From Spirochaetaceae bacterium (GTDB lineage: Bacteria > Spirochaetota > Spirochaetia > Treponematales > Breznakiellaceae), in NCBI GenBank assembly GCA_031258615.1, contig JAIRMP010000121.1, positions 1-33,533 of the forward strand: 33,533 bases of DNA, in the 5' to 3' direction. Made by a program: the position numbers and the translations under genes. Shown in pieces: positions 3,757 through 26,361 of this stretch (the stretch's first letter is position 1; the number at the start of each line of letters is the position of its first letter). A model generated the notes under the pieces. That model was given only the letters and a program-made list of their open reading frames with translations, was not told where the DNA came from and did no database searches.

Positions 3757-3774
3757 ATTAAGGAGGGTAAATTT

Positions 3775-4326: not shown

Positions 4327-4340
4327 GAGGAGAGAACATT

Positions 4341-5840
4341 ATGTCGGATGCGGTGGAAAAACAGGCGGTAGAGAAGGATCCGCTCAACCCTGAAACCCTC
4401 GAAATGTCAGATTTCGAGGCGCTGTTGAATCAGGAATTTAAACCCAAATCGGATGAGGCGACAACGGCGGTACACGGCGCGGTAAAAACCCTGGTGAACC
4501 AGGCCTTGGAAAACGCATCGCTGATTTCAAACGATACGGTAAAAACGATAGAGGGAATAATCGCCGAGCTTGATAAAAAGCTCTCGGCCCAGGTGAATCT
4601 GATCATTCATCATCCGGATTTTTCCAAACTCGAAGGCGCGTGGCGGGGGCTGGACTATCTTGTGAGCAATACCGCCACGAGCGACCGCCTCAAGATCAGG
4701 GTGATGAACATCTCCAAGGCGGAGTTGGGCAAGACTATCAAACGTTTTAAGGGGACGGCCTGGGATCAGAGCCCGTTGTTCAAGAGGATATACGAGGAAG
4801 AGTACGGCACCGCCGGCGGCGAGCCTTACGGCGCGTTGATAGGGGATTACTACTTTAACCAGACGCCGCCGGATATGGAGGTTCTGAAAGGGCTGGGGCA
4901 GATAGCTTCCGCTTCGCATATGCCGTTCATATCCGCCGCCGATCCTACGGTTATGAACCTCGACTCGTGGCAGGATCTTGCAAACCCGCGTGATATTACC
5001 AAGATTTTCTCGACTCCTGAGTACGCGGCGTGGCGTTCTTTCAGGGACAGCGACGACAGCCGTTATGTCGCCCTCGTGATGCCGCGTGTGTTGAGCCGGG
5101 TTCCCTACGGGGCAAAGAGCAATCCGGTCGAGGAGTTCGACTTTGAGGAAGACACCGGGGCCGGAGACAGCGGCAAGTACAACTGGATGAACGCCGCGTA
5201 CGCCATGGGGGTGAACATCAACAGGGCCTTTGCCAACTGCGGCTGGTGCGCCAATATACGCGGCGTAGAGTCGGGCGGCATGGTCGAGGGGCTGCCTACG
5301 CATACCTTCCCGACCGATGACGGCGGAGTCGCCATGAAATGCCCGACTGAAATCGCCATCACGGACAGGCGCGAGGCGGAGTTGTCAAAGAACGGCTTCC
5401 TGCCGCTGATTCACTGGAAAAACACCGACTACGCCGTCTTCCTTGGAGGGCAGACGATGAACCGCCCGCAGGAATTCGACTCGGCCGACGCCACCGCCAA
5501 CGCCGCCCTTTCCTCAAGACTTCCGTACATTTTCGCGGTGAGCCGCTTCGCCCATTACCTGAAATGTATGGTTCGGGACAAGATAGGCTCGTTCAAAGAA
5601 AAAGAGGATATGCAGGTGTGGCTGTCGAACTGGATTGCAGGCTATGTTACAGGCGACCCCAACGCCTCTGATGAGATCAAGGCAAAGTACCCGCTTGCGG
5701 AAGCCAAGGTCGAGGTGGAGTCGGTTGAAGGCCAGCCGGGGTACTACTCGGCGCGGTTTTATCTGCGGCCTCATTACCAGCTTGAAGGGCTCACCGCTTC
5801 GCTGCGCCTCGTAACCAAAGTTCCCTCTGGGGGCAAGTAG
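4341..5840 (+). CDS. tssC: T6SS contractile sheath large subunit TssC (VipB/ImpC)
   Basis: 499 aa. Typical blocks are present: HHPDFSKLEGAWRGLDYLV, SASHMPFISAA and LRPHYQLEGLTASLRLV. AGGAGGAG RBS upstream. Confidence 0.93.
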   Translation: MSDAVEKQAVEKDPLNPETLEMSDFEALLNQEFKPKSDEATTAVHGAVKTLVNQALENASLISNDTVKTIEGIIAELDKKLSAQVNLIIHHPDFSKLEGAWRGLDYLVSNTATSDRLKIRVMNISKAELGKTIKRFKGTAWDQSPLFKRIYEEEYGTAGGEPYGALIGDYYFNQTPPDMEVLKGLGQIASASHMPFISAADPTVMNLDSWQDLANPRDITKIFSTPEYAAWRSFRDSDDSRYVALVMPRVLSRVPYGAKSNPVEEFDFEEDTGAGDSGKYNWMNAAYAMGVNINRAFANCGWCANIRGVESGGMVEGLPTHTFPTDDGGVAMKCPTEIAITDRREAELSKNGFLPLIHWKNTDYAVFLGGQTMNRPQEFDSADATANAALSSRLPYIFAVSRFAHYLKCMVRDKIGSFKEKEDMQVWLSNWIAGYVTGDPNASDEIKAKYPLAEAKVEVESVEGQPGYYSARFYLRPHYQLEGLTASLRLVTKVPSGGK

Positions 5841-5841
5841 A

Positions 5842-5865
5842 TTTTTTTAGGGGGGGGGGGGGGGG
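5842..5865 (+). repeat. Homopolymer pair T7-A-G16 in the tssC-hcp intergenic region
   Basis: Direct count gives t5842-5848, a5849 and g5850-5865. The tract begins 2 nt after the tssC stop and lies ~105 nt upstream of the hcp ATG. Confidence 0.9.
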
Positions 5866-5911
5866 TATTCTTGGAATTATTTCAAACGGAAGGCGCATGA
5901 TTTAAGTTGTG

Positions 5912-5941
5912 TTGCTTTTATACGTTTGAATGATTTATATC
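5912..5941 (+). promoter_or_regulatory. Possible internal promoter for hcp
   Basis: TTGCTT (5912-5917), an 18-nt spacer, then TATATC (5936-5941), in an AT-rich stretch ahead of the hcp RBS GGAGG (5958-5962). The match is weak. Confidence 0.3.
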
Positions 5942-5970
5942 ATAAATACACCATGATGGAGGTAAAAATT

Positions 5971-6468
5971 ATGGCAAGTGTTTACTTTTTACAGTTGGAT
6001 GGAATTGAGGGGCAGGCTGCCGACAAGGCGCATGACAAATGGCTCGAGCTCGTTTCATTCTCTCACGGCGCGGCGCAGAATGTATCTATTCAGCGCTCAG
6101 GCGACGTAGCGGGGCGGGGTCAGTTCCTGCCGTTCACATTTGTACACGCGGTAGACAAGGCTACCCCGAAGATTCAGCTTTACTGCATGAACGGCAACAA
6201 AATCGCGAAAGCGGTTTTTCAGTATTGCCGCATAATCGGAGGCGCGCAGACACCGGTATACGAGCTTACACTGGAAAATGTGCGCGTCGCTAAAACCGTT
6301 GTCAAGACCATAGACACGGGTTCCAACGACGATCCGCTTGCCCAGCAGCCGGTAGAAGAAGTGGAATTGGTCGCCGGCAAGATCACGTGGAAGGTGACTC
6401 CGATTAAGCCGGATGGTTCCAAAGACGGCGCGATTGAAGCCGCCTACGACCAAATCGCCAACGAGTAG
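5971..6468 (+). CDS. hcp: T6SS inner tube protein Hcp (TssD)
   Basis: ATG 5971 follows GGAGG by 8 nt, so the ORF-track start at 5926 is probably too early. The N-terminus is Hcp-like, MASVYFLQLDGIEGQAADKAHDKWLELVSFSHG, and ...DKATPKIQLYCMNG... is also present. Product is 165 aa. Confidence 0.9.
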   Translation: MASVYFLQLDGIEGQAADKAHDKWLELVSFSHGAAQNVSIQRSGDVAGRGQFLPFTFVHAVDKATPKIQLYCMNGNKIAKAVFQYCRIIGGAQTPVYELTLENVRVAKTVVKTIDTGSNDDPLAQQPVEEVELVAGKITWKVTPIKPDGSKDGAIEAAYDQIANE

Positions 6469-6483
6469 CAGGCTGAAGAGCCG

Positions 6484-6510
6484 CCGTTCCATGCTTAACG
6501 CATGGAACGG
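6484..6510 (+). terminator. Hairpin (attenuator or partial terminator) after hcp
   Basis: An 11-bp perfect stem, CCGTTCCATGC/GCATGGAACGG, with a 5-nt loop, starting 16 nt after the hcp stop. Only a weak T-run (AAATTTTA) follows. Confidence 0.4.
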
Positions 6511-6534
6511 CTAAATTTTACGGCGGATTAACCA

Positions 6535-7047
6535 ATGGATACAGGCGGACGCGGGAATATCAGAAAAGAAGACGCAAGGTATAAGCCTTATGTGCTTAGA
6601 CGTTTAACGGATATGGACCCTTACGAAAAAACCGAGCGTATTCAAAATGTGATAACCGAAAAACAGGTAAAGGACGATATTTTCAAAAACATAGAAATGC
6701 TTTTCTATTCCCGTTCCCGCCCCTCGCTCAAAGAATTCAAAGGTTATGAAGATGTCGCAAATTCCGTGCTGGGTTACGGCATATCAGATTACTGCGGGAA
6801 GGTCTGTAGTAGAACAGAGCGTGAAGAACTTCTGGAACACATAAAAAACCAGATACGGATTTTTGAACCGCGTTTGGCGCCGGATTCTATAAGGGTTGAA
6901 TTTGGGAGCATTGAGGCTTCTATGCGTTCCATGCTGGAGCTTCACATCAGCGGAATTGTAACTGTGAATCAGGTTAACGAGGAGGTGCTTTTTATCTCCC
7001 GCCTTGATCTAGAAACGGGAAACGCCGTCTTGACCAACGCGGGTTAA
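6535..7047 (+). CDS. tssE: T6SS baseplate protein TssE (gp25/GPW-like)
   Basis: 170 aa. The gp25-like motif region is ...SVLGYGISDY...IKNQIRIFEPRL...VEF...L.ISG. It sits between hcp and tssF. The start codon is uncertain because no strong RBS is visible. Confidence 0.75.
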   Translation: MDTGGRGNIRKEDARYKPYVLRRLTDMDPYEKTERIQNVITEKQVKDDIFKNIEMLFYSRSRPSLKEFKGYEDVANSVLGYGISDYCGKVCSRTEREELLEHIKNQIRIFEPRLAPDSIRVEFGSIEASMRSMLELHISGIVTVNQVNEEVLFISRLDLETGNAVLTNAG

Positions 7048-7065
7048 GGGCGCATAAGGACAGTC

Positions 7066-8874
7066 ATGGAACTTTTGGATTACTACCGCGACAACCTTGC
7101 TTATATACGGAATTTGGCGCTGGAGTTTGCCGCGGAGTTTCCAAAGATAGCCGGACGTTTGGGCTTAAGCGGTTTTGAATGTGAGGACCCGTACATTGAG
7201 CGCCTGCTTGAGGGGACGGCGTTTTTATCCGCCCGTGTAGAAAAAAAACTTGACGACAGTTACAAGAATTTTCTTGAGTCGGTGTTGAATTCTATATCGC
7301 CGTCTTCCCTGTATCCCATCCCGTCCGGCGCGGTGCTGGAACTCCACTTAAATTATAACAACGAAAATGTAAAAAAAGGGAGCATCCTTCCCTGCGGCGC
7401 TCTGTTGGATGCGGTCATACCGACTATCAACACCCCCTGCCGCTTTTCAACGCTGGAAGATGTACCGATTGTTCCGCTTACAGTTACCGGTGCGGGGTAC
7501 ATAACGCGCAGCCTTTCCGATTTAGGAATCAACGAGCGGCAAGGGCTTGCCGGACTACGCATACAGCTAAGCGCCGAAGGCGACCTTACGCCTGCGGCTA
7601 TAGAGAGGCTTTGCTTTTACATCAACCTTTCCGACGCGGACGCATCGCTGTTGCTCCGCCAGATACTCCATGAAACTGTAGGCGTGTACGTCCGTACAGG
7701 CGAAAACCCGTTTAAGAGGCTCTCCGGCGCGGACTTTGAAATGCCGCTCGCTTACGGCGGAAGCTTCTTGTTTGAAAATTTAAAAAGTAACGCTTACGGG
7801 CTTAAACTGCTGCAAAATTTTTTGGCGTACCCCGCGTTTTTTAAGTTTTTTACGGTAAAAAATATTGACGCGGCGTTTCATCCCCCCTCAAAAACGGCGG
7901 AGATGATTTTTGTTTTTAACCGCCGCGAATATTCGCTTTCCTCCGTGAACGAGGGGGCGCTGCGGCTGAACTGCGCCCCGGCGGTCAACCTCTTCGCAAA
8001 AAGATCGGACAGGGTTACGATGGAACGCGGTATTTACGAATTCCATGTCGTGCCGGACAAGACCGCGCCCCGCGATTATGAAGTGGTAAACATACACAGC
8101 ATTGAATTTTTTAACGAACAGAATGAGACGCTTTTTTTGGCGTATAATTTTTATGATGACAACCCTTTCATGGAAAAGGCGGCGCGGAATTTTTTCTCCC
8201 AGAGGCGGCGGAAAAGCCTCGTGAATCCTAAAGTTACGCGGCGCAGTTCGTATGACGGGGCGGAAATGTTTGTTTCGTTTTCCGCTCAGGATAAAAAAAT
8301 GGAGGACGCCTACCAGTTCGCGGCGGAAACCGTCTGCACAAACCGTGATTTGCCGCTCCTCGCGCAGGTCGAAGCGCCCCTAGGATCCCGCAGCCCCATG
8401 CTTACCGGGGCTTCCTTTATCACCCGCCCCACGAGGCCCTGCGATTCTCTCATGGAACAAAATGGAGTTTCCGCCTTTTCAAGGTTGAGCCATATAATTT
8501 TTAACCTTTCCGCTATGTTCTGGCAGAACGGGGATATACCGCTGGAGGCCCTGCGCGCGCTCATCGCCTCATACCAGATACAACAGATCCGCTCCGGCGA
8601 AGAGATGGAGCGTATGCTGGAAGGGATAAGCGCTCTGGAACGGGAGAGCGCGTCCTTTCGTTTCATAAAAAACGGGGCTGTCTTTTTCGAGAGGGGCTGG
8701 CGGGTAAAGTTTACCCTTGATGAAAGCGCGTTTGCCGGTGTAGGCTGCTATACATTTGGAAAAATTTTGGCGGAATTGTTAAAATCTTTCACGCCGGTCA
8801 ATTCTCTTCTGGAGATTCATTTCCTGACAAAACAATCGGGGCTCATAGCGGTATGGAAAACATTAGAAGACTGA
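7066..8874 (+). CDS. tssF: T6SS baseplate protein TssF (ImpG/VasA)
   Basis: 602 aa. The N-terminus LLDYYRDNLAYIRNLALEFAAEFPKIAGRLGL...DPYIERLLEGTAFLSARV is characteristic of TssF. Confidence 0.9.
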   Translation: MELLDYYRDNLAYIRNLALEFAAEFPKIAGRLGLSGFECEDPYIERLLEGTAFLSARVEKKLDDSYKNFLESVLNSISPSSLYPIPSGAVLELHLNYNNENVKKGSILPCGALLDAVIPTINTPCRFSTLEDVPIVPLTVTGAGYITRSLSDLGINERQGLAGLRIQLSAEGDLTPAAIERLCFYINLSDADASLLLRQILHETVGVYVRTGENPFKRLSGADFEMPLAYGGSFLFENLKSNAYGLKLLQNFLAYPAFFKFFTVKNIDAAFHPPSKTAEMIFVFNRREYSLSSVNEGALRLNCAPAVNLFAKRSDRVTMERGIYEFHVVPDKTAPRDYEVVNIHSIEFFNEQNETLFLAYNFYDDNPFMEKAARNFFSQRRRKSLVNPKVTRRSSYDGAEMFVSFSAQDKKMEDAYQFAAETVCTNRDLPLLAQVEAPLGSRSPMLTGASFITRPTRPCDSLMEQNGVSAFSRLSHIIFNLSAMFWQNGDIPLEALRALIASYQIQQIRSGEEMERMLEGISALERESASFRFIKNGAVFFERGWRVKFTLDESAFAGVGCYTFGKILAELLKSFTPVNSLLEIHFLTKQSGLIAVWKTLED

Positions 8875-9902
8875 TAAAAAACTTAAGCCGCGATCTCCGG
8901 CAGAAAATTTCTTCCCCTGATTTTTGGGGGCTGGTGCGGAAACTGGAAAATAACAACATGGAAAATCCCCGCCTGGGTTACGCCAAGAGCCCCGCGTCCG
9001 AAAATGTACGTTTCGGGCAGACCCCCCACCTCCACCTGCCGGCGGGCGGCATAGCGGAGATTCTTGAGGGGAGGGACTCAGGTGTTGAGGCAATAATTTT
9101 CACCTATTTTTTTGGGCTCCTGGGGATTAACGGCCCTATGCCGCTCGAATTTACCAATTATGTTTACCGGCGTTCATACAGCTTTTACGATCATACGTGG
9201 CGGCGCTTCCTCGACATCATACACCACCGTATGCACGTATTCTACTACAGGGCATTTGCCCAGAACGAGCAGAGCGTCAGCTTTGACCGGCCTAACGATG
9301 ATCCGCTGCGGAGCATCGTGAAAAGCCTTACAGGGCTGCCGCCTGAAATTAATTACGGCGCCGCCATTGAAAAAAGCGCGCTTTCTTACGCCTGGGCCTT
9401 TTCGTTTACCGCAAGAAACCGGAGCGGACTCGAAGAAATGCTGCGCCGGCTGCTCCGAACCCGCGTAGAGGTAAAAGATTTTGTTACGGCGGCGTACGAT
9501 ATTTCCCCCGATGACTACGCCGTCCTCGGCAATCCTAAAACGGCGGTTCTCGGCGTGAGCCTACAGATAGGACGCACCTATCTCAGCGCCGCCCATAAAT
9601 TTGAAATACGGATAGGGCCTGCCAGCTTTGATATGTTTCCGGGGTATAAGCGCCGTTCATGGAGGGCCACTCTAAGAGCGTTTTTGCTGATACGGGAGCT
9701 TGTGAAACTCTACCTCGATAGGCCCCTTGATTACAGCATAGTGGTGAAACTTGTAAAAGGCTCTATGCCCGCAGCCATGCTTGGGTCTGAAAAACAGGAA
9801 GGCTTCCAGCTTGGATACAACTGCTGGATAGGCAGCACAGACAGGGAACTGGAACTTAGAATAGACACGTCCAGGTTTAACCGTATGAAGTGGATGAAGT
9901 GA
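8853..9902 (+). CDS. tssG: T6SS baseplate protein TssG (ImpH/VasB)
   Basis: 349 aa and overlaps the tssF end by 22 nt. TssG-like blocks are present: FWGLVRKLE, VRFGQTPHLHLPAGGI and FFGLLGINGPMPLEFT. Confidence 0.85.
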   Translation: MENIRRLIKNLSRDLRQKISSPDFWGLVRKLENNNMENPRLGYAKSPASENVRFGQTPHLHLPAGGIAEILEGRDSGVEAIIFTYFFGLLGINGPMPLEFTNYVYRRSYSFYDHTWRRFLDIIHHRMHVFYYRAFAQNEQSVSFDRPNDDPLRSIVKSLTGLPPEINYGAAIEKSALSYAWAFSFTARNRSGLEEMLRRLLRTRVEVKDFVTAAYDISPDDYAVLGNPKTAVLGVSLQIGRTYLSAAHKFEIRIGPASFDMFPGYKRRSWRATLRAFLLIRELVKLYLDRPLDYSIVVKLVKGSMPAAMLGSEKQEGFQLGYNCWIGSTDRELELRIDTSRFNRMKWMK

Positions 9903-9927
9903 TAGAAATGATATACGGAGGATGTAT

Positions 9928-12567
9928 ATGGGAAAGATGAAGCGGATACAGCTTTTTTCAAAACTCAATGAAAAGGCGTACAAGTCTATAGAGAGCGCCA
10001 CGGTTCTGTGCAAGGCGCGGGGCAACCCCTACATTGAGCTTTCGCACTGGGTAAACCAGATACTGCTGTCGGAAAACACGGACTGGCACGAGATAACGCG
10101 CTTTTTCGCGTTGGACGAGGCTAAGCTCTCAAAAGACATGGTAGCGGCGATGGACGCCCTGCCCCGTGGGGCATCGTCGATTTCAGACTTTTCCAACACG
10201 ATAGAGTTGGTAATCAAAGAAGCGTGGATGATCGCCTCGCTCGTGTTTTCCGAGGGCGCGATACGGACGGGCCATATCATGACAGCGTTGAAGCAGACGC
10301 CGGAATTCGCCCGCCAACTGCACGAGATGAGCGGCGAGTTTATCAAGGTAAACGGGGATATACTCGCCGAGCAGTTCGGCGTCATCGTCAAGAATTCGGC
10401 TGAGGTTTCCGTGTCCGTATCCAAGGAAGCGGGCGGGGCTACAGGGCAGCCGGGGGCTCTGATGGGCAGCGCCCCCGCGGGAAGCGCGGAGGCGTTGCGG
10501 CTGTACACGGCGGACATGACCGCCGCCGCGGAATCGGGAAAAAGCGATCCTATCACCGGCAGGGACAGCGAGATCCGAAAAATCATAGACATACTGATGC
10601 GCCGCCGCCAGAACAACCCCATACTCACAGGCGACGCCGGCGTAGGCAAGACCGCGGTGGTGGAAGGCTTCGCCCAGAGGCTTGCATCCGGAGACGTTCC
10701 CGCCTGCCTCAAAGGGACGCGCCTCCTGTCGCTCGACATGGGCCTGTTGCAGGCGGGAGCGAGCATGAAGGGCGAATTTGAGAACCGCCTGAAGCAGGTC
10801 ATCGAAGCGGTGCAGAACTCTGAAGTTCCTATCATCCTGTTTATTGACGAGGCGCACACGATGATAGGGGCCGGCGGGCAGGCGGGACAGGGGGATGCCG
10901 CCAACTTGCTGAAGCCCGCTCTGGCGCGCGGGCGGCTGCGCTGTATCGCGGCCACCACGTATCAGGAGTACATCAAATACTTCGAGAAGGACCCGGCGCT
11001 CACGAGGCGCTTTCAGAACATCCTCATTGACGAGCCGGACGATGAAAAGGCAGCCGGCATGATGAGGGGGATAGTGGGCGTACTGGAAAAACATCACAAC
11101 GTGTACATTTTGGACGAGGCGCTGGAAGCGGCGGTAAAACTTTCGCGCCGCTACATCCCCGCCCGCCAGCTTCCCGACAAGGCGGTGAGCGTACTCGATA
11201 CAGCCTGCGCCAAGGTGTCTTTGAGCCAGAGCGCCGAGCCCGCGGAGCTTGAGTATTGCCGGAGGAGGATAGAAGCCCTCAGCCTTGAAATCGACATACT
11301 CAGGCGGGAAGAATCCCGCGGCTTCGTTCACGATGATAAGACAGCCTCGCTCGAAAACGAGCAAAAACTCGAACAGGAAAAGAAGGAGGCGCTGGAAAAA
11401 CGCCTCCAGACCGAAAAGTCGCTCGTCGCCGAAATCATCGGCTTACAGAAGGAAGCGGGGACGGGCAAGGATGCGCGGGAGGAACTGGAGGCAAAGCGGA
11501 AGGCGCTCTCGGAGGAGCAGGGAGAGGACCCGCTCGTGTTCCCGCAAGTTGACAGCCAGACTGTTTCCGCCGTCATATCCGAATGGACGGGCATCCCGCT
11601 CGGCCGCATGGTAAAGAACGAGATCAAGTCCATACTCACGCTGGACACGGAACTGCAAAAGCGCGTTGTGGGGCAGGATCACGGGCTTGCTATGATTTCC
11701 AAGCGCATAACCACGGCGCGGGCGTCGCTCGCCGACCCGAACAAGCCCATAGCGGTGATCATGCTCGCCGGGACTTCCGGCACGGGCAAGACGGAAACCG
11801 CCCTCGCCCTTGCCGAACAGATATATGGGAGCGAGGAGAGCATCATCACTATCAACATGAGCGAATTTCAGGAGGCGCACACGGTTTCCACGCTGAAGGG
11901 AGCGCCCCCCGGCTATGTGGGCTACGGCGAGGGCGGCGTTCTTACCGAGGCGGTCCGCCGTAAGCCGTACAGCGTGCTGCTCCTTGACGAAGTGGAAAAG
12001 GCGCACCCGGACGTACACGAAATATTTTTTCAGGTGTTCGACAAGGGGCAGATGGAGGACGGCTCGGGGCGGCTGGTGAATTTCAGAAACACGATCATCA
12101 TCCTGACGACTAACGTCGGGGATCAGGTGATAGAAAAACTCTGCAAGGACGAAAACAACCTACCAGGTCCTGAAACTCTGGAAGAGGCGATACGTCCGGC
12201 GATGTTGCGGGCATTCCCGGCGGCTCTGCTCGGGCGTTTGCAGATAGTCCCGTACTACCCGCTCGGCAAAACCGCGCTGTATTCGATAATAGACCTGAAA
12301 TTCGACAGGATTAGAAAGCGCATAGCGGACACGTACAAGGCGGAAATGGAGATTTCCGCCGCGGTAAAGGACGAGGTCATACGCCGCTGCGACAACGCCG
12401 CTTCGGGGGCGCGGCTCGTGGACGCCGTTATCAACAACAGCATACTGCCCGAAATCAGCGCCAAGTTCTTGAACAATATAATGAATAAAAGGATACTTAG
12501 AAGAGTTTCGATAGACGTGAAAGATGAAAAATTCACGTACGCTTTTGAGAGCGAGGAGGGTGAATGA
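9928..12567 (+). CDS. clpV: T6SS AAA+ ATPase ClpV (TssH)
   Basis: Two Walker A loops are present, GDAGVGKTAVVEG and LAGTSGTGKTETA. Walker B motifs are ILFIDEAH and VLLLDEVEKAH. There is a Clp N-domain and a coiled-coil middle region. GGAGG at 9917-9921 favours ATG 9928 over 9922 or 9937. Confidence 0.93.
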   Translation: MGKMKRIQLFSKLNEKAYKSIESATVLCKARGNPYIELSHWVNQILLSENTDWHEITRFFALDEAKLSKDMVAAMDALPRGASSISDFSNTIELVIKEAWMIASLVFSEGAIRTGHIMTALKQTPEFARQLHEMSGEFIKVNGDILAEQFGVIVKNSAEVSVSVSKEAGGATGQPGALMGSAPAGSAEALRLYTADMTAAAESGKSDPITGRDSEIRKIIDILMRRRQNNPILTGDAGVGKTAVVEGFAQRLASGDVPACLKGTRLLSLDMGLLQAGASMKGEFENRLKQVIEAVQNSEVPIILFIDEAHTMIGAGGQAGQGDAANLLKPALARGRLRCIAATTYQEYIKYFEKDPALTRRFQNILIDEPDDEKAAGMMRGIVGVLEKHHNVYILDEALEAAVKLSRRYIPARQLPDKAVSVLDTACAKVSLSQSAEPAELEYCRRRIEALSLEIDILRREESRGFVHDDKTASLENEQKLEQEKKEALEKRLQTEKSLVAEIIGLQKEAGTGKDAREELEAKRKALSEEQGEDPLVFPQVDSQTVSAVISEWTGIPLGRMVKNEIKSILTLDTELQKRVVGQDHGLAMISKRITTARASLADPNKPIAVIMLAGTSGTGKTETALALAEQIYGSEESIITINMSEFQEAHTVSTLKGAPPGYVGYGEGGVLTEAVRRKPYSVLLLDEVEKAHPDVHEIFFQVFDKGQMEDGSGRLVNFRNTIIILTTNVGDQVIEKLCKDENNLPGPETLEEAIRPAMLRAFPAALLGRLQIVPYYPLGKTALYSIIDLKFDRIRKRIADTYKAEMEISAAVKDEVIRRCDNAASGARLVDAVINNSILPEISAKFLNNIMNKRILRRVSIDVKDEKFTYAFESEEGE

Positions 12568-12857
12568 TGCCTACGCCTATAGCGACTATAGCAAATTTGA
12601 CAGCCACCGGAGACGTGATAATAGGTCCCGGGGCGCTGACTACGATGGTGAAGGGGCTGCCGGTCGCCTGCATGGGGGACGCGGTCGCCGGCGCCTTATG
12701 CGTTGCCGGCGTGATAACGATGACGACGGCGCTAAACAAACTGGCCAAGGGGCGTCCTATAGCAAATATAGGCAGCTTGGTAACGGGGATTTCCATGCTG
12801 GGTTTTCCGGTATCCACGGCGGTGCTGGTCTGCCCGAATGTAAACGAGATTGTGTAG
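12564..12857 (+). CDS. PAAR-domain spike-tip protein (no extension domain)
   Basis: 97 aa. Repeated PAAR-like motifs are GLPVACMGD and GRPIANIGS, with a Gly/Val-rich beta pattern. There is an ATGA overlap with the clpV stop, and GAGGAGGG RBS upstream. Confidence 0.75.
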   Translation: MMPTPIATIANLTATGDVIIGPGALTTMVKGLPVACMGDAVAGALCVAGVITMTTALNKLAKGRPIANIGSLVTGISMLGFPVSTAVLVCPNVNEIV

Positions 12858-12858
12858 T

Positions 12859-14079
12859 ATGAGTGAAGGACAAAAAGCGCTGGAAATGCGTCTGGCGGGC
12901 GGAAAGTTTACCGATCTCTACCCCTGGGAATTGACGCTGGAAGAGGGGCTTTCGCGGCTTTACACCGGAAGGCTGACCGCTCTTTCGAATACAAAGCATA
13001 CGGCGGAGGAGCTTTCGGCCTTTGTTGACAAGGGCATTTCCGTTACTATCAGGGAAAAGCTGCTTGACACGAAAACGGACAGAACCCGTTACTTTTGCGG
13101 GATAGTTACGGCGGTAAGCTGCGAGGGAGTGTTTTGCGGCGCTAATAAGGCGGATTGCTACACGTATACATTTGTCATTGAGCCGGAAATCGCCCGTCTA
13201 AAGTACACGCGGCTCTCCGAGCCGTACTACAAGATGAATCCGGCGGATATATTCGAAAAGATACTTGAGAAATACAAGATAACGGCGAAAATAACGGAAA
13301 ACTACTTTAAGCGCGGGCAGTATTCCAGGAATCTGATGTTCGATCAGAGTAGTACGCCGGACTATAGCTTCATAGACGCCATAGCGCGGCTCTACGGGAT
13401 ATCGCTGGTTTTAACGCATCCCGCGGTTTCGCCCGGGGCGCTCGGCGCGGCGGAAGTTTACTTTTCCACAGGTGAAAAGTTTCCCGTTTCCGCCCTCGCG
13501 TACTCGGATAAACGGAGCGAGCCGGACGCGCTGCAATTCGATTTTTTAAGGGCGGACGAAAGGAACAGTGTCTGGCGTATGGATAAATTCAGTGTTACCC
13601 CGGGAATCGGCGTTGACGGCTTCAAGGTGAACGCGATGTACCCCGACTCAAATTACGGTTCGGATAACTGGAAGCAGGGTAAAACAGTTCCCGGCAGCCG
13701 GTACATCGTTTACAGGGGGCTTTTCCACGGTTATGCCGCGTCCACGGAAACCGGCGAGGTTGACGCCGATATGGACCTCATACTTACGGCAAAGACCCGC
13801 GCCGCCGAACAGGGAAAAAAGCTCTTAAAAGGGTCCGCGTCGAACATCGCTATCCGTCCCGGCGTACTGCTGGAACTCCGTCATTTTTACGGGCAGAGCG
13901 ACAATACGGTGAATACCGTACTGGTTACGGGAATAACTCTGCGCCGCAGGGCGCTCTGGCCTTCGGATCTCGCGGTTTGGGCGGAAGATGCCGGTGGCGA
14001 AATAACGGAAGTCGAGTTTGAAGGCATAGACTGGGGCGGGGGCGCGGTAAAACGTTTCTGCCCGCCGGCTGTAGATTAA
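12859..14079 (+). CDS. vgrG: VgrG N-terminal half only (gp27-like hub / phage late control D-like)
   Basis: 406 aa from ATG 12859. VgrG N-terminal landmarks are present: LEEGLSRLYTGRLTALS...RYFCGIVTAV...YTYTFVIEPEIARLKY...NPADIFEKILEKY...DYSFIDAIARLYGISLV...GSASNIAIRPGVLLELRH. It ends at TAA 14077-14079 with no OB-fold or beta-helix region. Confidence 0.75.
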   Translation: MSEGQKALEMRLAGGKFTDLYPWELTLEEGLSRLYTGRLTALSNTKHTAEELSAFVDKGISVTIREKLLDTKTDRTRYFCGIVTAVSCEGVFCGANKADCYTYTFVIEPEIARLKYTRLSEPYYKMNPADIFEKILEKYKITAKITENYFKRGQYSRNLMFDQSSTPDYSFIDAIARLYGISLVLTHPAVSPGALGAAEVYFSTGEKFPVSALAYSDKRSEPDALQFDFLRADERNSVWRMDKFSVTPGIGVDGFKVNAMYPDSNYGSDNWKQGKTVPGSRYIVYRGLFHGYAASTETGEVDADMDLILTAKTRAAEQGKKLLKGSASNIAIRPGVLLELRHFYGQSDNTVNTVLVTGITLRRRALWPSDLAVWAEDAGGEITEVEFEGIDWGGGAVKRFCPPAVD

Positions 14080-14103
14080 GATAATGGGGATTGAGGAGAG
14101 GCT

Positions 14104-15693
14104 ATGAAGTTGTTAGAGATGATAGTTACCGGTGAATGTGTCAACGACAATCCTTACAGGTTCCACGCCCGCAACCCGAACGGTACCGCCGAGCATACGG
14201 TTCATATAGTGATGCCGCTGGGCGGCGCCGAATCGGGGTTGTACCGGTCCCCGAGGAAGGGTGAGTCTGTGCTTGTGGCTGAGAACGACGGCGGCGACAG
14301 CAATATGTATTACCTCATGGGATATTTGCCGGACAGCGAGCAGCCCTTTACCACCGGTGATAAAAACAAGGTCATTGATGACAGCGGCGAGATATTCCGG
14401 TATAAAAAAACCGGCAAAAACGGCCCGGACGGTGAAAAGTATTCGGAAATCGGGTTTTACAGCAAACCTACCTCATGGAGAATGACGGAAGGAGGGGATG
14501 ATACTCCCAAAATCGACAGGATCAGCATACATTCCACCGGTGATCTTCATGAAGACTCCATAAACCACCATAAAACAAGCGCTAAACGCTTTGAGCTCCT
14601 GGTGAATTGCGGGGACGGCGATGGCGAGGGTGAAGTTGCGGGCTCCGGCGGGCAGGAAAACAAACGCCCTTTTGGGGACGGCAAGGGTGACGATTCGGAA
14701 CTTTACGCCGGGGATGCCCATATCAGGGCCAGGAACCGGCTAATACTCAAGGCGGGAGAAGAGATACGCCTGCAAGTAGGCCGTTCCGCTATCATCATCA
14801 GCGATGACGGTATCACTATTACCTCGAAAAAGTCGCAAAAAAATAACGCGGCCATTCCCTGGGATACGGTGATAAACCTGACCCCCCGCGACGGCATAAC
14901 GATGTTCGGCCAGAACGTGAATGTGGGGGCGGCTTACAACTTTTCACTACGGGAGAGCGCCGGGGGCGCCGTTTCCAGCCTGGGCGGGGTGATGCGCCTT
15001 TCCGCCCGCGACCTTCTGGCGCAGTCCTACTGCAAGGCGGGCTACCAGTCCAACATGACGGAATTTATCAGGCAATACACCGCCACGGCAAAGGGTATGC
15101 GATCCGAGGAGGGGGATGTCCCCTCTTACACCGCCCTCCTGCCGTCCCTGGTGCAGTGCTTCTCCGGCATCAACTGGGGGTACGCATCCTCCACCTCCAA
15201 CTATTCCGATCCGGCGGGGGACTACGCCGCCTACTGCGGCATCCTGCTACAGATCCTCAGCCTCACCTATACCGGACTGGACTTGAGCATGAGCGCCGAG
15301 ATGAAGCGGAGCGGCGGGCGGGATGCCTTTAACGCGGCGGTCCTGGCGGATATGCAGGAGAAGGTGCAGGAGATGCTGGGTTATATTGACGATGCCGGGG
15401 ACCCGGCGCGGGCTGTTCACAACAGCTTCATGCACCTGACATCGTCAGCGGATGCTGTTTTGAGCGGCTACGACAATGAGCGGCTTTCGGTAAACGTTAT
15501 CGACGGCAACGCGCCGCTGGCGGGAACCAGCGGTTCCCTTATCGCCAAGGAGACCGCCCGCCTGCAAAAGGGAAATTCCGCCGAGTCGACCATGAGAACC
15601 TTTCTTCAAAACGAAAAGGACCTGATTGACAAGGGCGCCCTATGGGCGCTGGGAATGGACGACAGCGCTCTAAATAAACTCAAGGAGTTATAA
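14104..15693 (+). CDS. vgrG: Cassette 1 gene 1: gp5-like spike (VgrG C-terminal half: OB-fold plus beta-helix) with a unique C-terminal extension
   Basis: GAGGAG RBS lies 5 nt upstream. OB-fold-like region: VHIVMPLGGAESGLYRSPRKGESVLVAE...YYLMGYLP. Beta-helix-like rungs: IDRISIHSTGDLHE, LYAGDAHIRARNRLILKAGEEIRLQVGRSAIIISDDGITITSKK and GITMFGQNVNV. The last ~225 aa are unique. Confidence 0.7.
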   Translation: MKLLEMIVTGECVNDNPYRFHARNPNGTAEHTVHIVMPLGGAESGLYRSPRKGESVLVAENDGGDSNMYYLMGYLPDSEQPFTTGDKNKVIDDSGEIFRYKKTGKNGPDGEKYSEIGFYSKPTSWRMTEGGDDTPKIDRISIHSTGDLHEDSINHHKTSAKRFELLVNCGDGDGEGEVAGSGGQENKRPFGDGKGDDSELYAGDAHIRARNRLILKAGEEIRLQVGRSAIIISDDGITITSKKSQKNNAAIPWDTVINLTPRDGITMFGQNVNVGAAYNFSLRESAGGAVSSLGGVMRLSARDLLAQSYCKAGYQSNMTEFIRQYTATAKGMRSEEGDVPSYTALLPSLVQCFSGINWGYASSTSNYSDPAGDYAAYCGILLQILSLTYTGLDLSMSAEMKRSGGRDAFNAAVLADMQEKVQEMLGYIDDAGDPARAVHNSFMHLTSSADAVLSGYDNERLSVNVIDGNAPLAGTSGSLIAKETARLQKGNSAESTMRTFLQNEKDLIDKGALWALGMDDSALNKLKEL

Positions 15694-15694
15694 A

Positions 15695-16087
15695 ATGCCG
15701 GGATCAATAGATATAGCAGCCGTCGTTAACAGTTATAGCGGAGATAAAACTATAACCACATGGGATGGTTTTGTTGAGGCGATTATTGTTACCGCGATAG
15801 ACAAATGTTCACTTCAAAGCCGTGTAAGCGCGGGAGCAGAGGAAGAAGAAGACTGGGCTAACACAACAGAGCGTGTGAATTTTTCATTGGGATTTACAGG
15901 CGAGGAAGTAGCTCTTCTCGGTGTGGGTTTCTCCCTGTCAGGCGCTGAGACGGGACTTCATGTCATGGCGGGTGATTGGGCGCTTCTCAAACAAATTTCA
16001 CAAATGGCTGGATGGGAAGATAAGGCTTTGGAGAAAAAAAACGTTGCAGCCGGGATGGCCGTGTTTGGCATTGACCTTATAGCATAG
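15695..16087 (+). CDS. Cassette 1 gene 2: 130-aa hypothetical protein with Gly-rich hydrophobic segments
   Basis: AAGGAG lies 7 nt upstream, inside the end of the spike gene, with a 1-nt gap to the spike stop. The ORF is 130 aa, the same length as the other two cassette gene-2 products, but I see no obvious sequence similarity to them. Confidence 0.55.
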   Translation: MPGSIDIAAVVNSYSGDKTITTWDGFVEAIIVTAIDKCSLQSRVSAGAEEEEDWANTTERVNFSLGFTGEEVALLGVGFSLSGAETGLHVMAGDWALLKQISQMAGWEDKALEKKNVAAGMAVFGIDLIA

Positions 16088-16108
16088 GGTGATTTGTGGA
16101 ATAGTATT

Positions 16109-23179: not shown

Positions 23180-24340
23180 ATGGCGGATAAACTTGATTGG
23201 TTGAATAAACATCTGGCAATGTTGCGGTATATCACGCTCATGGATGTTGTTGAAAAGGAAGGGTATAAGATCAGACCGGACCTTGCGGACTTTTTCGTGG
23301 GGGTCAACACTGTGGAGGAGATGGTTTTTAAGTTTGCGGGTATGGGCCGTTTTAAGTGCGCCTGTGAACTCATGGCCTACATCGCCCACCGGCGGGCGGC
23401 TGTGTGGTGGCTCTACCGCTGTATTCATTCCTTACTCGAAGAGTTAGCGGAGAATCCCGCGGTTGAACGGGACATTGCCGACATCGGCATCAGTTTTGAA
23501 CCAACCGTGCCGGATTTTGCCAAGGTGGAAACGCCCAAAGCGGACCCTGAAATGATCGCGTCTATGAAGGCAAAACTCGCGGATATGGAAGCGGATTATC
23601 AAAAGGCCAGGGCAGTGGCGGATCCCCAGATGCTCGGCCTTGTGGAGGAAGCGATGGAAGTCGCCTACCAGGAGTTTAAGAAGGTCCACGGCATTCACCC
23701 TCTGGACCTGATTAAAAAATTGGGAGAAAGGATGGAGGAGGATCCCCATCCCATCGATCCTGATTCCCCCCTTTTCAAGGCCGCGGACGAACTCAAGGCT
23801 AAGCTCCAAACGGTGCGGAAGGAAACGGTGGACACGATTAAGTCGGTGATCCCGCCCAAGGTGCCGGCGCACGAAAAAAAGGTACGGGATGACGCGCTTT
23901 CCGCCGTGTACCGCTGGGTTGCCGCCCCGGACGAGGAGAACAGCAAGGCCTGCCTTGACATAGGCAACGAATGTCCGGACACACCGGCGGGACTGCTTTC
24001 GCTCTCCGCTTTCTGGGCGTTCGGCAACCTGATGCCGGGCGGCAAGCAGGTAATCCCGGCTCCGCCCGGCCTTGCCGCCAACGGGCTGGTACAGACGCTC
24101 CTGATGTGCGCCCTCCACAAGGGCGGGACGCGGAAGGTAAAGGAACGCTACGAGGTCTACTTCAACCTAGGGGTGGAGGTGATGAGCGGCACGGACAACT
24201 GGGAAGAAGGCATTGTTACAGGCAGAGCGCCCCACGAAAATTTGAGCGCTCCGGCAAACGTCCCTCCGGCTGGTGGCGGCGCCCCGCGAGGCGATGGAAC
24301 GGCGTACAAACGCTGGAAGCCGGAAAGCCCGGGACCGTAA
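23180..24340 (+). CDS. Cassette 3 gene 3: 'MADKLDWL' family protein
   Basis: AAGGAG lies 8 nt upstream. The product is 386 aa and is a paralog of 16109-17290 and 19807-20946. Confidence 0.7.
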   Translation: MADKLDWLNKHLAMLRYITLMDVVEKEGYKIRPDLADFFVGVNTVEEMVFKFAGMGRFKCACELMAYIAHRRAAVWWLYRCIHSLLEELAENPAVERDIADIGISFEPTVPDFAKVETPKADPEMIASMKAKLADMEADYQKARAVADPQMLGLVEEAMEVAYQEFKKVHGIHPLDLIKKLGERMEEDPHPIDPDSPLFKAADELKAKLQTVRKETVDTIKSVIPPKVPAHEKKVRDDALSAVYRWVAAPDEENSKACLDIGNECPDTPAGLLSLSAFWAFGNLMPGGKQVIPAPPGLAANGLVQTLLMCALHKGGTRKVKERYEVYFNLGVEVMSGTDNWEEGIVTGRAPHENLSAPANVPPAGGGAPRGDGTAYKRWKPESPGP

Positions 24341-24345
24341 AAACT

Positions 24346-26349: not shown

Positions 26350-26361
26350 AAAGGAGCGTAA

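What the first reader, a model, noticed from the sequence alone, without database searches (positions are those of the whole stretch)
12859..15693. VgrG is split phage-T4 style: one stand-alone gp27-like gene and separate gp5-like genes
In canonical T6SS-i, VgrG is a single gp27-gp5 fusion. Here the gp27-like part ends at TAA 14077-14079. The gp5-like part starts at ATG 14104 with its own GAGGAG RBS. The two ORFs are in the same frame but are separated by two in-frame stops (TAA 14077-14079 and TGA 14092-14094), so a single sequencing error cannot fuse them. The other two gp5-like genes (17385 and 21076) have no gp27-like region upstream at all. The stoichiometry is therefore 1 gp27-like, 3 gp5-like and 1 PAAR. 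This suggests a common hub that can be capped by interchangeable needles, giving combinatorial spike loading. Separate gp27 and gp5 proteins are known from phage T4, and Francisella has a minimal VgrG lacking the gp27 part. The arrangement is atypical for a tssJLM-containing locus.
Basis: partly seen in the sequence, partly recalled or inferred. Interest (0 to 1): 0.8.

Follow-up and report, generated by a model that had tools for sequence, protein, structure and literature searches.

The report
Split T6SS spike: one hub, three needles
In this spirochaete-type (Treponema-like) type VI secretion locus, the spike protein VgrG, normally one chain, is encoded as a separate hub gene and three interchangeable needle genes, a conserved natural gene fission that shows the spike can work as a modular two-part device.

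Summary
12859-14079 encodes a 406-aa stand-alone gp27-like hub: Pfam Phage_GPD, AF2 pLDDT 92, best fold matches T6SS VgrG spikes. After TAA, an in-frame TGA and a GAGGAG RBS, 14104-15693 encodes a gp5-like needle (OB-fold, beta-helix, helical C-terminal domain). Two more needles start at 17385 and 21076. The window holds one hub and one PAAR.

It is not an artefact. 44 hub homologues are 394-418 aa apart from two shorter ones. In 24 loci the hub ORF ends in a stop, and the needle follows in any reading frame. In one locus it is not adjacent. dN/dS is below 1 for both halves.

The nearest relatives outside this clade are fused 919-1113-aa VgrGs, two of them shown in fully syntenic T6SS loci. 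Their C-terminal part is homologous to the needles, and the break falls at the variable gp27/OB linker. Split hubs form one clade (131/150 bootstraps) nested among fused forms, so this is most simply a gene fission.

Cassette number varies from 1 to 3. The closest relative lacks exactly cassette 1, with breakpoints in the conserved OB-coding region.

Sharing of one hub by alternative needles is inferred, not shown. This is a new variant of a known kind and of moderate to high interest.

The parts
2701..12567 (+). Upstream T6SS core genes: tssA (2701-3756), tssB (3775-4326), tssC (4341-5840), hcp (5926-6468), tssE (6535-7047), tssF (7066-8874), tssG (8853-9902), clpV/tssH (9922-12567).
   Evidence: Pfam hits all lie far above the gathering scores. 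TssC matches chain 5n8n_B at E 4e-223.
12564..12857 (+). The single PAAR tip protein (97 aa).
   Evidence: Pfam PAAR_motif E 3.5e-5, just below the cut-off. It sits at the same position in all related loci at 63-96% identity. dN/dS is 0.07 against L031.
12859..14079 (+). Stand-alone gp27-like hub (406 aa), corresponding to the N-terminal third of a VgrG.
   Evidence: PF05954 E 2.1e-15. AF2 pLDDT 91.9. Foldseek best match 4mtk VgrG1, E 5.8e-20, TM 0.63. 44 homologues, 394-418 aa apart from two shorter ones. dN/dS 0.30.
14080..14103 (+). 24-nt spacer between hub and needle 1, holding a second in-frame stop (TGA 14092-14094) and the GAGGAG ribosome-binding site (14093-14098).
   Evidence: Sequence read directly.
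14104..15693 (+). Needle 1 (529 aa): gp5-like OB-fold (~1-80), beta-strand region and beta-helix (to ~300), then a helical C-terminal domain.
   Evidence: AF2 secondary structure. Foldseek matches to VgrS/VgrG1 at E 3e-7 and to the R2 pyocin spike. Homologous to residues 452-885 of fused VgrG P0148, E 4e-24. Family-wide Phage_base_V and DUF2345 hits.
15695..16087 (+). 130-aa accessory protein of cassette 1. It has no detectable sequence similarity to those of cassettes 2 and 3.
   Evidence: No Pfam, NCBIfam or PHROG hit.
16109..17290 (+). DUF6931 protein of cassette 1. ATG 16109 is the likely start; the ORF listing extends the ORF to TTG 16094.
   Evidence: PF22011 E 4e-18. The tblastn match starts at 16109.
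17385..19394 (+). Needle 2 (669 aa), with no gp27-like region upstream.
   Evidence: Phage_base_V E 0.0022 and DUF2345 E 0.032. Paralogue alignment. Its orthologue in L031 is 65% identical by blastp.
19404..19796 (+). 130-aa accessory protein of cassette 2, with a hydrophobic N-terminal segment.
19807..20946 (+). DUF6931 protein of cassette 2.
   Evidence: PF22011 E 3e-22.
21076..22767 (+). Needle 3 (563 aa from ATG 21076; the ORF is open from ATG 21067).
   Evidence: DUF2345 E 0.007 and Phage_base_V E 0.01. Paralogue alignment. Its orthologue in L031 is 72% identical.
22768..23160 (+). 130-aa accessory protein of cassette 3 (64% identical to that of cassette 2).
23180..24340 (+). DUF6931 protein of cassette 3.
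   Evidence: PF22011 E 4e-24.
24346..24918 (+). Small lipoprotein (lipobox LVAC) and TssJ candidate. A gene of similar size sits at this position in related loci.
   Evidence: Sequence. A 175-229-aa gene occupies the same position in L001-L004, L028, L029 and L032. No Pfam hit.
24949..31453 (+). Downstream T6SS core genes: tssK (24949-26349), tssL (26362-27090), tssM (probably from ~27080 to 31453).
   Evidence: Pfam VasE, DotU and IcmF-related_N. Alternative tssM start.

Best explanation
This is a canonical-type (T6SS-i) secretion locus of a Treponema/Spirochaetaceae-like bacterium in which the spike gene vgrG has undergone gene fission at the flexible linker between the gp27-like hub and the gp5-like OB-fold. 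Shown: the hub (406 aa) and the needle are separate genes, both under purifying selection. The arrangement is conserved in a whole lineage. The nearest relatives outside that lineage are single-chain ~950-1100-aa VgrGs, and the two examined sit at the same position in syntenic loci. Needle cassettes (needle, 130-aa protein, DUF6931 protein) vary from one to three per locus and are gained or lost by recombination in the conserved OB-coding 5' region. Inferred: a (hub)3 trimer docks non-covalently on the OB-fold ring of a (needle)3 trimer, as in phage T4 gp27-gp5 and P2 gpD-gpV, and the single PAAR caps the conserved beta-helix tip. The one hub gene therefore serves any of the three needles. These share the docking and tip regions (36-62% identity) but carry unrelated C-terminal domains of ~230-285 aa, which are presumably effector or effector-recruiting modules. 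Each firing would thus deliver one of several alternative warheads. After the split, only the small needle cassette has to be duplicated or exchanged to diversify the payload.
For: Junction and ORFs. Hub identity: PF05954 E 2e-15; AF2 pLDDT 91.9; Foldseek best matches are VgrG1 structures at E ~1e-19 to 1e-20, followed by stand-alone hubs such as Mu gp44. Needle identity: 33/42 and 32/42 family members hit Phage_base_V and DUF2345; Foldseek matches VgrG spike parts and the R2 pyocin spike. Conservation: 44 hubs, 394-418 aa apart from two shorter ones; 82 needles of 298-804 aa, none with Phage_GPD; 23 genome loci, all Treponema/Spirochaetaceae; conserved order ClpV-PAAR-hub-needle-130aa-DUF6931-TssK. 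Every hub ORF ends in a stop, and needles follow in frames 0, +1 or +2 with gaps of 4-212 nt. In L032 the start overlaps the stop by 4 nt. In L012 the hub lies after the cassette. Fission: fused 919-1113-aa relatives carry a needle-homologous C-terminal part, and two of them (L028, L029) lie in fully syntenic loci. The split clade is monophyletic in 131/150 bootstraps and nested among fused forms. The break maps to the variable linker. There are no PHROG hits. Selection: dN/dS is 0.30 for the hub, 0.45-0.50 for the needles and 0.07 for PAAR. Modularity: 1, 2 or 3 cassettes per locus. The window equals L031 plus cassette 1, with breakpoints inside the shared OB-coding region.
Against: There is no direct evidence of hub-needle-PAAR complex formation. 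No multimer prediction could be run, and the monomer model of the needle is only moderately confident (pLDDT 64). Each window needle alone scores below Pfam thresholds for the OB and beta-helix models. Only 33.5 kb of the genome is visible, so a full-length vgrG elsewhere cannot be excluded. Whether all three needles are expressed and used is unknown. The direction of change (fission versus fusion) rests on an unrooted NJ tree with 87% support and on parsimony. The function of the C-terminal domains, the 130-aa proteins and DUF6931 is unknown.
Confidence: 0.8

Rival explanations
1. Sequencing or assembly error, or a recent pseudogenising mutation, in an ordinary fused vgrG.
For: In the window the two ORFs are in the same frame and only 24 nt apart. 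One separate case (L030) rests on a single 3.5-kb metagenomic contig where a simple frameshift could mimic a split.
Against: The window has two in-frame stops and a dedicated RBS. 24 independent loci all have the stop, with needles in all three relative frames, gaps of 4-212 nt, one start/stop overlap and one non-adjacent arrangement. Hub length is conserved over 36-86% identity. The linker present in fused forms is missing. dN/dS is below 1 on both halves.
Confidence: 0.01
2. The gp5-like proteins are TvpC-like assembly templates. TvpC is a stand-alone OB plus beta-prism protein lacking gp27 that pre-assembles PAAR and accessory proteins and is then replaced by a real full-length VgrG encoded elsewhere. 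Under this reading the hub would be something else.
For: Such stand-alone gp27-less VgrG-like proteins exist in T6SS-i (TvpC, DUF3540/DUF6484; PMC13373197). 3 of 42 needle-family members weakly hit DUF3540. The rest of the genome is not visible.
Against: The window needles hit neither DUF3540 nor DUF6484, even at E up to 10. No DUF2169 (TvpA) or DUF4150-type PAAR is found in the locus. The needles align with the spike portion of single-chain VgrGs that occupy the same position in syntenic loci. A stand-alone hub with no needle of its own would make no sense. The needles are 529-669 aa with C-terminal domains, unlike short TvpC.
Confidence: 0.05
3. The VgrG was replaced by phage-derived hub and spike genes (P2 gpD/gpV-like or Mu gp44/gp45-like) captured from a prophage, rather than arising by fission of a T6SS VgrG.
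For: Pfam names the hub domain after P2 gpD, and some database entries call these proteins 'phage late control D' or 'baseplate assembly protein V'. Stand-alone phage hubs are good fold matches (ranks 18-25).
Against: The best fold matches are T6SS VgrGs. Neither hub nor needles hit any PHROG family. The closest sequence relatives outside the clade are fused VgrGs, with syntenic T6SS loci shown for two of them, and both halves are homologous to them. The hub clade nests inside the fused VgrG radiation.
Confidence: 0.04
4. The split is real, but only one needle (probably the hub-adjacent one) is used. The other cassettes are silent, orphan or degenerating copies, so there is no combinatorial loading.
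For: There are no expression data. Many relatives manage with a single cassette. Recombination scars exist, such as a chimeric ORF joining a needle N-terminus to a DUF6931 C-terminus in L002, L003 and L010.
Against: All three needles have intact ORFs, their own Shine-Dalgarno-like sequences and conserved OB and beta-helix regions. Needles 2 and 3 have orthologues in L031 with dN/dS of 0.45-0.50. In L031 the needle-2 type is the hub-adjacent one, so position is not fixed.
Confidence: 0.1

Closest known systems
Canonical T6SS-i VgrG/TssI (e.g. P. aeruginosa VgrG1 PA0091, PDB 4mtk/4uhv), and especially the long ~950-1100-aa VgrGs of the same T6SS subtype (P0145, P0147, P0148, P0150; P0153 from a Victivallaceae MAG)
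   Same: The hub fold is the same (Foldseek E ~1e-20). The OB-fold and beta-helix are the same. The locus position (ClpV-PAAR-VgrG-130aa-DUF6931-lipoprotein-TssKLM) and the rest of the machine are the same.
   Different: Here the hub and needle are two genes and two polypeptides, and the inter-domain linker is absent. One hub gene serves up to three needle genes. In canonical systems each VgrG paralogue carries its own gp27 domain.
Phage two-protein spikes: T4 gp27 + gp5, P2 gpD + gpV (also R-type pyocins), Mu gp44 + gp45
   Same: The hub and needle are separate genes, and the break lies between the hub and the OB-fold. The stand-alone hubs Mu gp44 and 3d37 and the R2 pyocin spike are fold matches.
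   Different: There is no phage context and no PHROG hit. No lysozyme domain like that of T4 gp5 was found. The closest sequence relatives are T6SS VgrGs, so the resemblance is most simply a secondary return to the ancestral layout. The needles carry large C-terminal domains.
Francisella T6SS-ii central spike, PdpA + VgrG (PDB 6u9e/6u9f/6u9g; review PMC5924787)
   Same: It is a T6SS whose spike is built from two different polypeptides, with the gp27-like head on a separate protein. PdpA is a fold match to the hub (rank 21, E 1.9e-11).
   Different: In Francisella the 164-aa VgrG is beta-helix only, and PdpA is proposed to supply both the gp27-like head and the OB-fold. Here the OB-fold belongs to the needle. 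The Francisella machine is the divergent T6SS-ii. This locus is a standard T6SS-i gene set with ClpV and TssA-M. The NF041249 score is 20.6 against a cut-off of 100.
TvpC accessory proteins (DUF3540/DUF6484) of Serratia and Pseudomonas T6SS-i (Monlezun, Earl and Coulthurst, EMBO J 2026, PMC13373197)
   Same: They are stand-alone trimeric OB-fold plus beta-prism proteins without a gp27 domain, encoded in T6SS-i loci.
   Different: TvpC is a transient template that a full-length VgrG replaces, and it works with DUF2169 and DUF4150 proteins. Here no such partners are present, the window needles do not hit the TvpC Pfam families, and a dedicated stand-alone hub is encoded next to them.
'Split vgrG locus' noted in some Acinetobacter strains (PMC6838775)
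   Same: [quoted passage not shown]
   Different: That was a one-sentence, strain-level observation without evidence of conservation, selection or function. Here the split is fixed across a lineage and coupled to multiplication of needle cassettes.

Membership tests
T6SS VgrG/TssI (canonical single-chain spike) | gp27-like hub domain | tested here: met
   PF05954 E 2.1e-15. AF2 pLDDT 91.9. Foldseek 4mtk E 5.8e-20.
T6SS VgrG/TssI (canonical single-chain spike) | gp5-like OB-fold followed by a trimeric beta-helix | tested here: met
   Each window protein gives sub-threshold Pfam hits. 33/42 and 32/42 family members hit Phage_base_V and DUF2345. Foldseek matches VgrG spike parts and the R2 pyocin spike. 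Homology to fused VgrG at E 4e-24. The trimeric state was not tested.
T6SS VgrG/TssI (canonical single-chain spike) | Hub and needle on one polypeptide | tested here: not met
   Two in-frame stops. Separate ORFs in 24 loci and in all frames.
T6SS VgrG/TssI (canonical single-chain spike) | Curated NCBIfam score for TssI/VgrG (TIGR03361 cut-off 186 bits) | tested here: not met
   The hub scores 50.9 bits over model positions 11-159 only.
T6SS-i locus | Core set TssA, B, C, Hcp, E, F, G, ClpV, K, L, M, plus PAAR | tested here: met
   Pfam hits. TssJ is only a candidate lipoprotein with no Pfam hit.
Phage T4 gp27/gp5 or P2 gpD/gpV two-gene spike | Separate hub and needle genes, with the break between hub and OB-fold | tested here: met
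Phage T4 gp27/gp5 or P2 gpD/gpV two-gene spike | Phage or tailocin gene context and membership of phage protein families | tested here: not met
   No PHROG hit for hub or needles. The locus is a T6SS.
Phage T4 gp27/gp5 or P2 gpD/gpV two-gene spike | Lysozyme domain within gp5 (T4-specific; from established knowledge) | tested here: not met
   No lysozyme or other enzymatic Pfam hit in any needle at E up to 10.
Francisella T6SS-ii PdpA/VgrG spike | Needle protein is beta-helix only, and the OB-fold resides on the hub protein | tested here: not met
   The OB-fold hit lies at needle residues ~28-65. The hub ends before the OB region. The Francisella layout is taken from PMC5924787.
Francisella T6SS-ii PdpA/VgrG spike | NCBIfam NF041249 (T6SS_TssI_Fran), cut-off 100 bits | tested here: not met
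   20.6 and 16.3 bits.
TvpC pre-complex template (DUF3540/DUF6484) | Stand-alone OB plus beta-prism protein lacking gp27 | tested here: met
TvpC pre-complex template (DUF3540/DUF6484) | Pfam DUF3540 or DUF6484 membership | tested here: not met
   No hit for the three window needles at E up to 10. Only 3 of 42 family members hit DUF3540 weakly.
TvpC pre-complex template (DUF3540/DUF6484) | Co-encoded DUF2169 (TvpA), DUF4150-type PAAR and a full-length VgrG | tested here: not met
   None is found in the window. The rest of the genome could not be searched.

The most novel reading that the evidence does not exclude
The non-covalent hub-needle joint is functional, not just tolerated. It would let a single hub trimer be capped by any of several needle homo- or heterotrimers, giving combinatorial warheads from minimal gene duplication. 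It might also let the needle, with its toxic C-terminal domain, detach from the hub and tube after penetration (a detachable warhead), with the conserved 130-aa and DUF6931 proteins acting as needle-specific chaperones or loaders. This would be a distinct, undescribed mode of T6SS-i spike assembly and payload diversification, and a natural blueprint for engineering modular T6SS spikes.
Probability: 0.3. Interest if true: 0.8.

Novelty: new variant of a known kind. Interest (0 to 1): 0.62.

Why it matters
VgrG is treated as the defining single-chain gp27-gp5 fusion of T6SS. The fusion is often cited as what distinguishes T6SS spikes from phage spikes. Here, a lineage-wide split under purifying selection lies in an otherwise ordinary T6SS-i, and the closest relatives outside the lineage are fused VgrGs, two of them shown in syntenic loci. 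Together these form a natural experiment suggesting that the covalent link is dispensable. They also show that payload diversification can proceed by multiplying only the needle cassette while keeping one hub.

This gives matched split and fused pairs for testing how the hub recognises the OB ring. It lets one ask whether heterotrimeric or alternative needles compete for one hub, and whether T6SS spikes can be engineered as plug-in modules.

It also documents a T6SS in termite-gut-type Treponema/Spirochaetaceae. I found no description of T6SS in this group in the searchable literature.

Tried and rejected
- Single-sequence phmmer of the hub and of needle 1 against PDB sequences found nothing. 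The profile of the hub family found VgrGs only over the first ~190 residues, and the profile of the needle family found nothing significant. Fold comparison was therefore needed.
- The AF2 monomer model of needle 1 is only moderately confident (pLDDT 64), so its fold matches have low TM-scores. I use them only together with the profile and homology evidence.
- PHROGs gave no hits for hub, needles or accessory proteins.
- Literature searches for a described split VgrG or a Treponema T6SS found only the one-line Acinetobacter remark, the Francisella case and TvpC.
- I tried to name the organisms carrying fused relatives. Only P0153 (Victivallaceae MAG) is named, and the last homology search on P0145 and two cluster look-ups returned unnamed metagenomic proteins.
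- The first bootstrap run produced NaN distances and was discarded. It was repeated with a safer cap.
- Programmed read-through or frameshifting that would make a fused product was considered and rejected, because the relative frame and the spacing are not conserved.
- L030 was considered as a second, independent fission, but a frameshift in a single short contig cannot be excluded.


Full report

Yes. The sequence shows TAA at 14077-14079, an in-frame TGA at 14092-14094, GAGGAG at 14093-14098 and ATG at 14104. Translating straight through gives ...KRFCPPAVD*DNGD*GEAMKLLEM....

The ORF list gives these genes:
- the hub at 12850/12859-14079 (ATG 12859 lies 1 nt after the PAAR stop);
- needle 1 at 14104-15693 (529 aa);
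- needle 2 at 17385-19394 (669 aa);
- needle 3 at 21067/21076-22767, where alignment with the paralogues favours ATG 21076.

A tblastn map of the window finds exactly one gp27-like region, three gp5-like N-terminal regions and one PAAR. DUF6931 genes, not hub sequence, lie upstream of needles 2 and 3.

**2. What are the two halves?**

*Hub.* The 406-aa protein hits Pfam Phage_GPD at E 2.1e-15. With a 41-sequence alignment, AF2 gives a confident model (pLDDT 91.9, pTM 0.90). Its best PDB fold matches are:
- T6SS VgrG spikes (4mtk E 5.8e-20, 7q5p, 4uhv; TM ~0.63-0.66 over ~420 columns);
- then eCIS spikes;
- then stand-alone phage hubs (Mu gp44, 3d37);
- and Francisella PdpA.

*Needles.* Each needle alone gives only sub-threshold hits to the gpV/gp5 OB domain (residues ~28-65) and to the VgrG beta-helix region DUF2345. 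The evidence becomes solid collectively:
- 33 of 42 family members hit Phage_base_V (best 3e-6), and 32 of 42 hit DUF2345 (best 7e-5).
- The AF2 model of needle 1 (pLDDT 64) shows an N-terminal beta-domain, beta-strand repeats to ~300 and a helical C-terminal domain.
- That model matches the spike portions of VgrS and VgrG1 (E 3e-7 to 2e-6) and the R2 pyocin and P1 spikes.

*Locus.* The rest of the window is a complete T6SS-i gene set: TssA, B, C, Hcp, E, F, G, ClpV, PAAR ... a lipoprotein, TssK, L, M. TssC matches chain 5n8n_B at 745 bits. From memory that entry is the P. aeruginosa TssB1C1 sheath.

**3. Artefact or biology?**

Biology.
- The hub has 44 homologues at 36-86% identity. All are 394-418 aa apart from two shorter ones (281 and 366 aa), and those named are Treponema or Spirochaetaceae.
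- The needle has 82 homologues of 298-804 aa, none with a Phage_GPD domain.
- A scan of one genome per species found 23 loci, all Treponema/Spirochaetaceae MAGs plus Treponema sp. TIM-1.
- The order ClpV-PAAR-hub-needle-130aa-DUF6931-(lipoprotein)-TssK-TssL-TssM recurs.
- In 24 loci the hub ORF ends in TAA, TAG or TGA, in most a few codons after a conserved KRFCP-type motif.
- Where a downstream needle could be assessed, it starts 4-212 nt later, in frame 0 (4 loci), +1 (10) or +2 (3).
- In L032 the needle start overlaps the hub stop by 4 nt.
- In L012 the hub lies after the cassette, so the two genes are not even adjacent.
- Against the closest relative (L031), dN/dS is 0.30 for the hub, 0.45-0.50 for the needles, 0.07 for PAAR and 0.14 for ClpV.

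Sequencing error, pseudogenisation and conserved recoding are therefore excluded.

**4. Where did the split come from?**

A profile of the hub family was searched against 1.84 billion representative proteins. It returned first the ~400-aa stand-alone hubs and fragments of them. Next came a large set of 919-1113-aa proteins whose first ~400 residues match the hub.

- These long proteins carry Phage_GPD plus weak Phage_base_V or DUF2345 hits.
- Their C-terminal parts are homologous to the window's needle. P0148 residues 452-885 align with needle 1 residues 5-448 (26% identity, E 4e-24) and share motifs such as VMPLxG..GL[YF]RxPRxGE..LVA, YYLMGYLP and YSE[IL]GFY.
- Two fused relatives, P0150 and P0147, lie in fully syntenic loci: TssA-G, ClpV, PAAR, VgrG (943 or 1035 aa), a 130-132-aa gene, DUF6931, a lipoprotein, TssK, L, M.
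- One fused relative is from a Victivallaceae MAG. The others are unnamed.

In an NJ tree of the gp27 domain, the 24 sampled stand-alone hubs form one clade. The clade has 131/150 bootstrap support and is nested in the radiation of long fused VgrGs, with ordinary ~600-650-aa VgrGs outside.

An alignment of hub plus needle against the fused proteins places the break in the variable, low-complexity linker (roughly 20-50 aa) between the last hub strand and the first OB strand. In the split clade that linker is absent. The hub ends a few residues after KRFCP, and the needle starts at the N-terminal conserved block of the OB region (M-x-L-L-E-M-x-V).

The hub and needles hit no phage family.

The simplest reading is a single fission of a long T6SS VgrG in the ancestor of this spirochaetal T6SS lineage. 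It recreates the T4 gp27|gp5, P2 gpD|gpV and Mu gp44|gp45 layout.

A second stand-alone pair, on the 3.5-kb contig L030, nests among the fused forms. It may be an independent fission or a frameshift.

**5. One hub, several needles**

Cassette number varies between loci:
- one in L001, L002 and L003;
- two in L004, L015, L031 and L032;
- three in the window.

The closest relative, L031 (hub 86% and PAAR 96% identical), is collinear with the window on both sides but lacks exactly cassette 1. L031 888-5301 aligns to window 9921-14330, and L031 5067-11406 aligns to window 17371-23752. The shared segment, L031 5067-5301, is the conserved OB-coding 5' part of the needle genes. This is the signature of cassette gain or loss by homologous recombination directly beside a constant hub. 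In L031 the hub-adjacent needle is the needle-2 type.

Further signs of recombination among these modules:
- a chimeric 276-aa ORF (needle N-terminus fused to a DUF6931 C-terminus) between PAAR and hub in L002, L003 and L010;
- rearranged gene orders in L012 and L016.

Within the window, the three needles compare as follows:
- OB region: 51-62% identical;
- beta-helix region: 36-56% identical;
- C-terminal domains of ~230-285 aa: no significant similarity.

Needles 2 and 3 also contain strongly hydrophobic segments.

The conserved OB ring is the presumed hub-docking surface, and the conserved beta-helix end is the presumed PAAR platform. Together with the single, very conserved PAAR, this is what one expects if all three needles use the same hub and tip. 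This step is inference. No complex prediction or experiment was possible.

**6. Mechanism proposed**

*Shown:*
- two-gene spike;
- lineage-wide conservation;
- purifying selection;
- homology of both halves to fused VgrGs that sit at the same position in syntenic loci;
- modular cassette turnover.

*Inferred:* (hub)3 binds (needle)3 non-covalently through the OB ring, as in T4 and P2, and nucleates the Hcp tube and the TssEFGK baseplate. PAAR caps the needle. The divergent C-terminal domains are effectors or effector docks. The 130-aa and DUF6931 proteins are cassette-linked accessory factors (chaperone, adaptor or immunity). Different firings would carry different needles.

**7. Comparison with what is known**

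- **Canonical VgrG:** this system works like one but fails the single-polypeptide criterion and the NCBIfam cut-off (50.9 against 186 bits).
- **Phage T4/P2/Mu:** it shares the two-gene layout but is not phage-derived by the evidence here.
- **Francisella PdpA/VgrG:** there the proposed division lies after the OB-fold, and the machine is the divergent T6SS-ii (NF041249 20.6 against 100 bits).
- **TvpC:** this recently described stand-alone protein lacks gp27 and templates spike assembly before being replaced by a full VgrG. The window needles do not belong to DUF3540 or DUF6484, the TvpA and DUF4150 partners are absent, and a dedicated hub is present.
- **Acinetobacter:** a single sentence in a survey mentions strains with a split vgrG locus.

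I found no description of this spirochaetal system, or of a conserved hub|needle fission in a T6SS-i.

**8. Verdict**

This is a new variant of a known kind: a T6SS-i whose VgrG is fissioned into a shared hub and multiplied, exchangeable needle cassettes. Interest is moderate to high for T6SS and contractile-injection-system specialists.

The main caveats are the absence of any complex-level evidence, the invisible remainder of the genome, and the unknown function of the C-terminal domains and accessory genes.

Noticed in passing
window 15695-17290, 19404-20946, 22768-24340; also L001-L004, L028, L029, L031, L032: Every needle, and every fused VgrG examined in the syntenic loci, is followed by a 130-132-aa protein and a ~380-415-aa DUF6931 protein. 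DUF6931 is better conserved than the hub (51-71% against 40-71% identity to the window across loci; dN/dS 0.17). That fits a core accessory or chaperone role better than a variable immunity protein, although one preprint calls a DUF6931 gene near a Pseudovibrio vgrG a putative immunity gene. The 130-aa protein of cassette 1 has no detectable similarity to those of cassettes 2 and 3.
   Followed up: partly
L002 9158-9988, L003 453-1283, L010 5158-5766: A 276-aa ORF between PAAR and hub is a chimera of a needle N-terminus (residues 1-79) and a DUF6931 C-terminus. It looks like the scar of a cassette deletion by recombination.
   Followed up: partly
L012 (PAAR 2-235, needle 471-1565, DUF6931 4338-5468, hub 6001-7188, TssK 7970-9346); L016 (hub 1054-2256, PAAR 2869-3156, needle 3185-4141): Gene order is rearranged in some relatives. 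In L012 the hub follows the needle cassette, and in L016 PAAR follows the hub. So hub, PAAR and needle behave as independent modules.
   Followed up: no
L030 849-2069 and 2074-3498: A stand-alone 406-aa hub is followed 4 nt later, in frame +1, by a gp5-like gene. In the tree this hub nests among fused VgrGs, far from the main split clade (0/150 bootstraps with it). It is either a second independent fission or a frameshift in a single short metagenomic contig.
   Followed up: partly
L032 8757-11836: The same split architecture with two cassettes, and the needle start overlaps the hub stop by 4 nt. A cluster-mate of this needle (P0126) is labelled as an Alphaproteobacteria MAG. Either the split system occurs outside spirochaetes or a 3.4-kb contig was mis-binned.
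   Followed up: no
window 24346-24918: A small protein with a lipoprotein signal (…LTLVAC…) sits between the last DUF6931 gene and tssK, a position conserved in the relatives. It is a TssJ candidate but hits no Pfam model. The ORF listing 23971-24918 over-extends it into the DUF6931 gene.
   Followed up: partly
window 26984-27092: The mechanical tssM ORF starts at TTG 26984 and overlaps tssL by 107 nt. An ATG near 27080-27092 (MGGSMTSF…) gives the tssL/tssM junction seen in relatives and a ~1455-aa TssM.
   Followed up: partly
window 4341-5840: TssC matches chain 5n8n_B at 745 bits over 455 residues, far closer than the hub is to any solved VgrG. This suggests the spirochaetal T6SS core is a proteobacterial-type T6SS-i, possibly acquired horizontally, while its spike module has diverged strongly.
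   Followed up: no
window 12524-12862 (+) and many minus-strand ORFs across 14000-24000: There are long overlapping ORFs in other frames, for example 112 aa over the PAAR gene and 251 aa and 294 aa antisense to needles 2 and 3. They have no family hits and look like by-products of the G+C-rich coding sequence.
   Followed up: no
window 1278-1868 (+), 31809-33214 (-): Flanking genes encode a rubrerythrin and an ABC transporter permease/ATPase pair. This fits a chromosomal location in an anaerobe. Window G+C is 52.8%.
   Followed up: no
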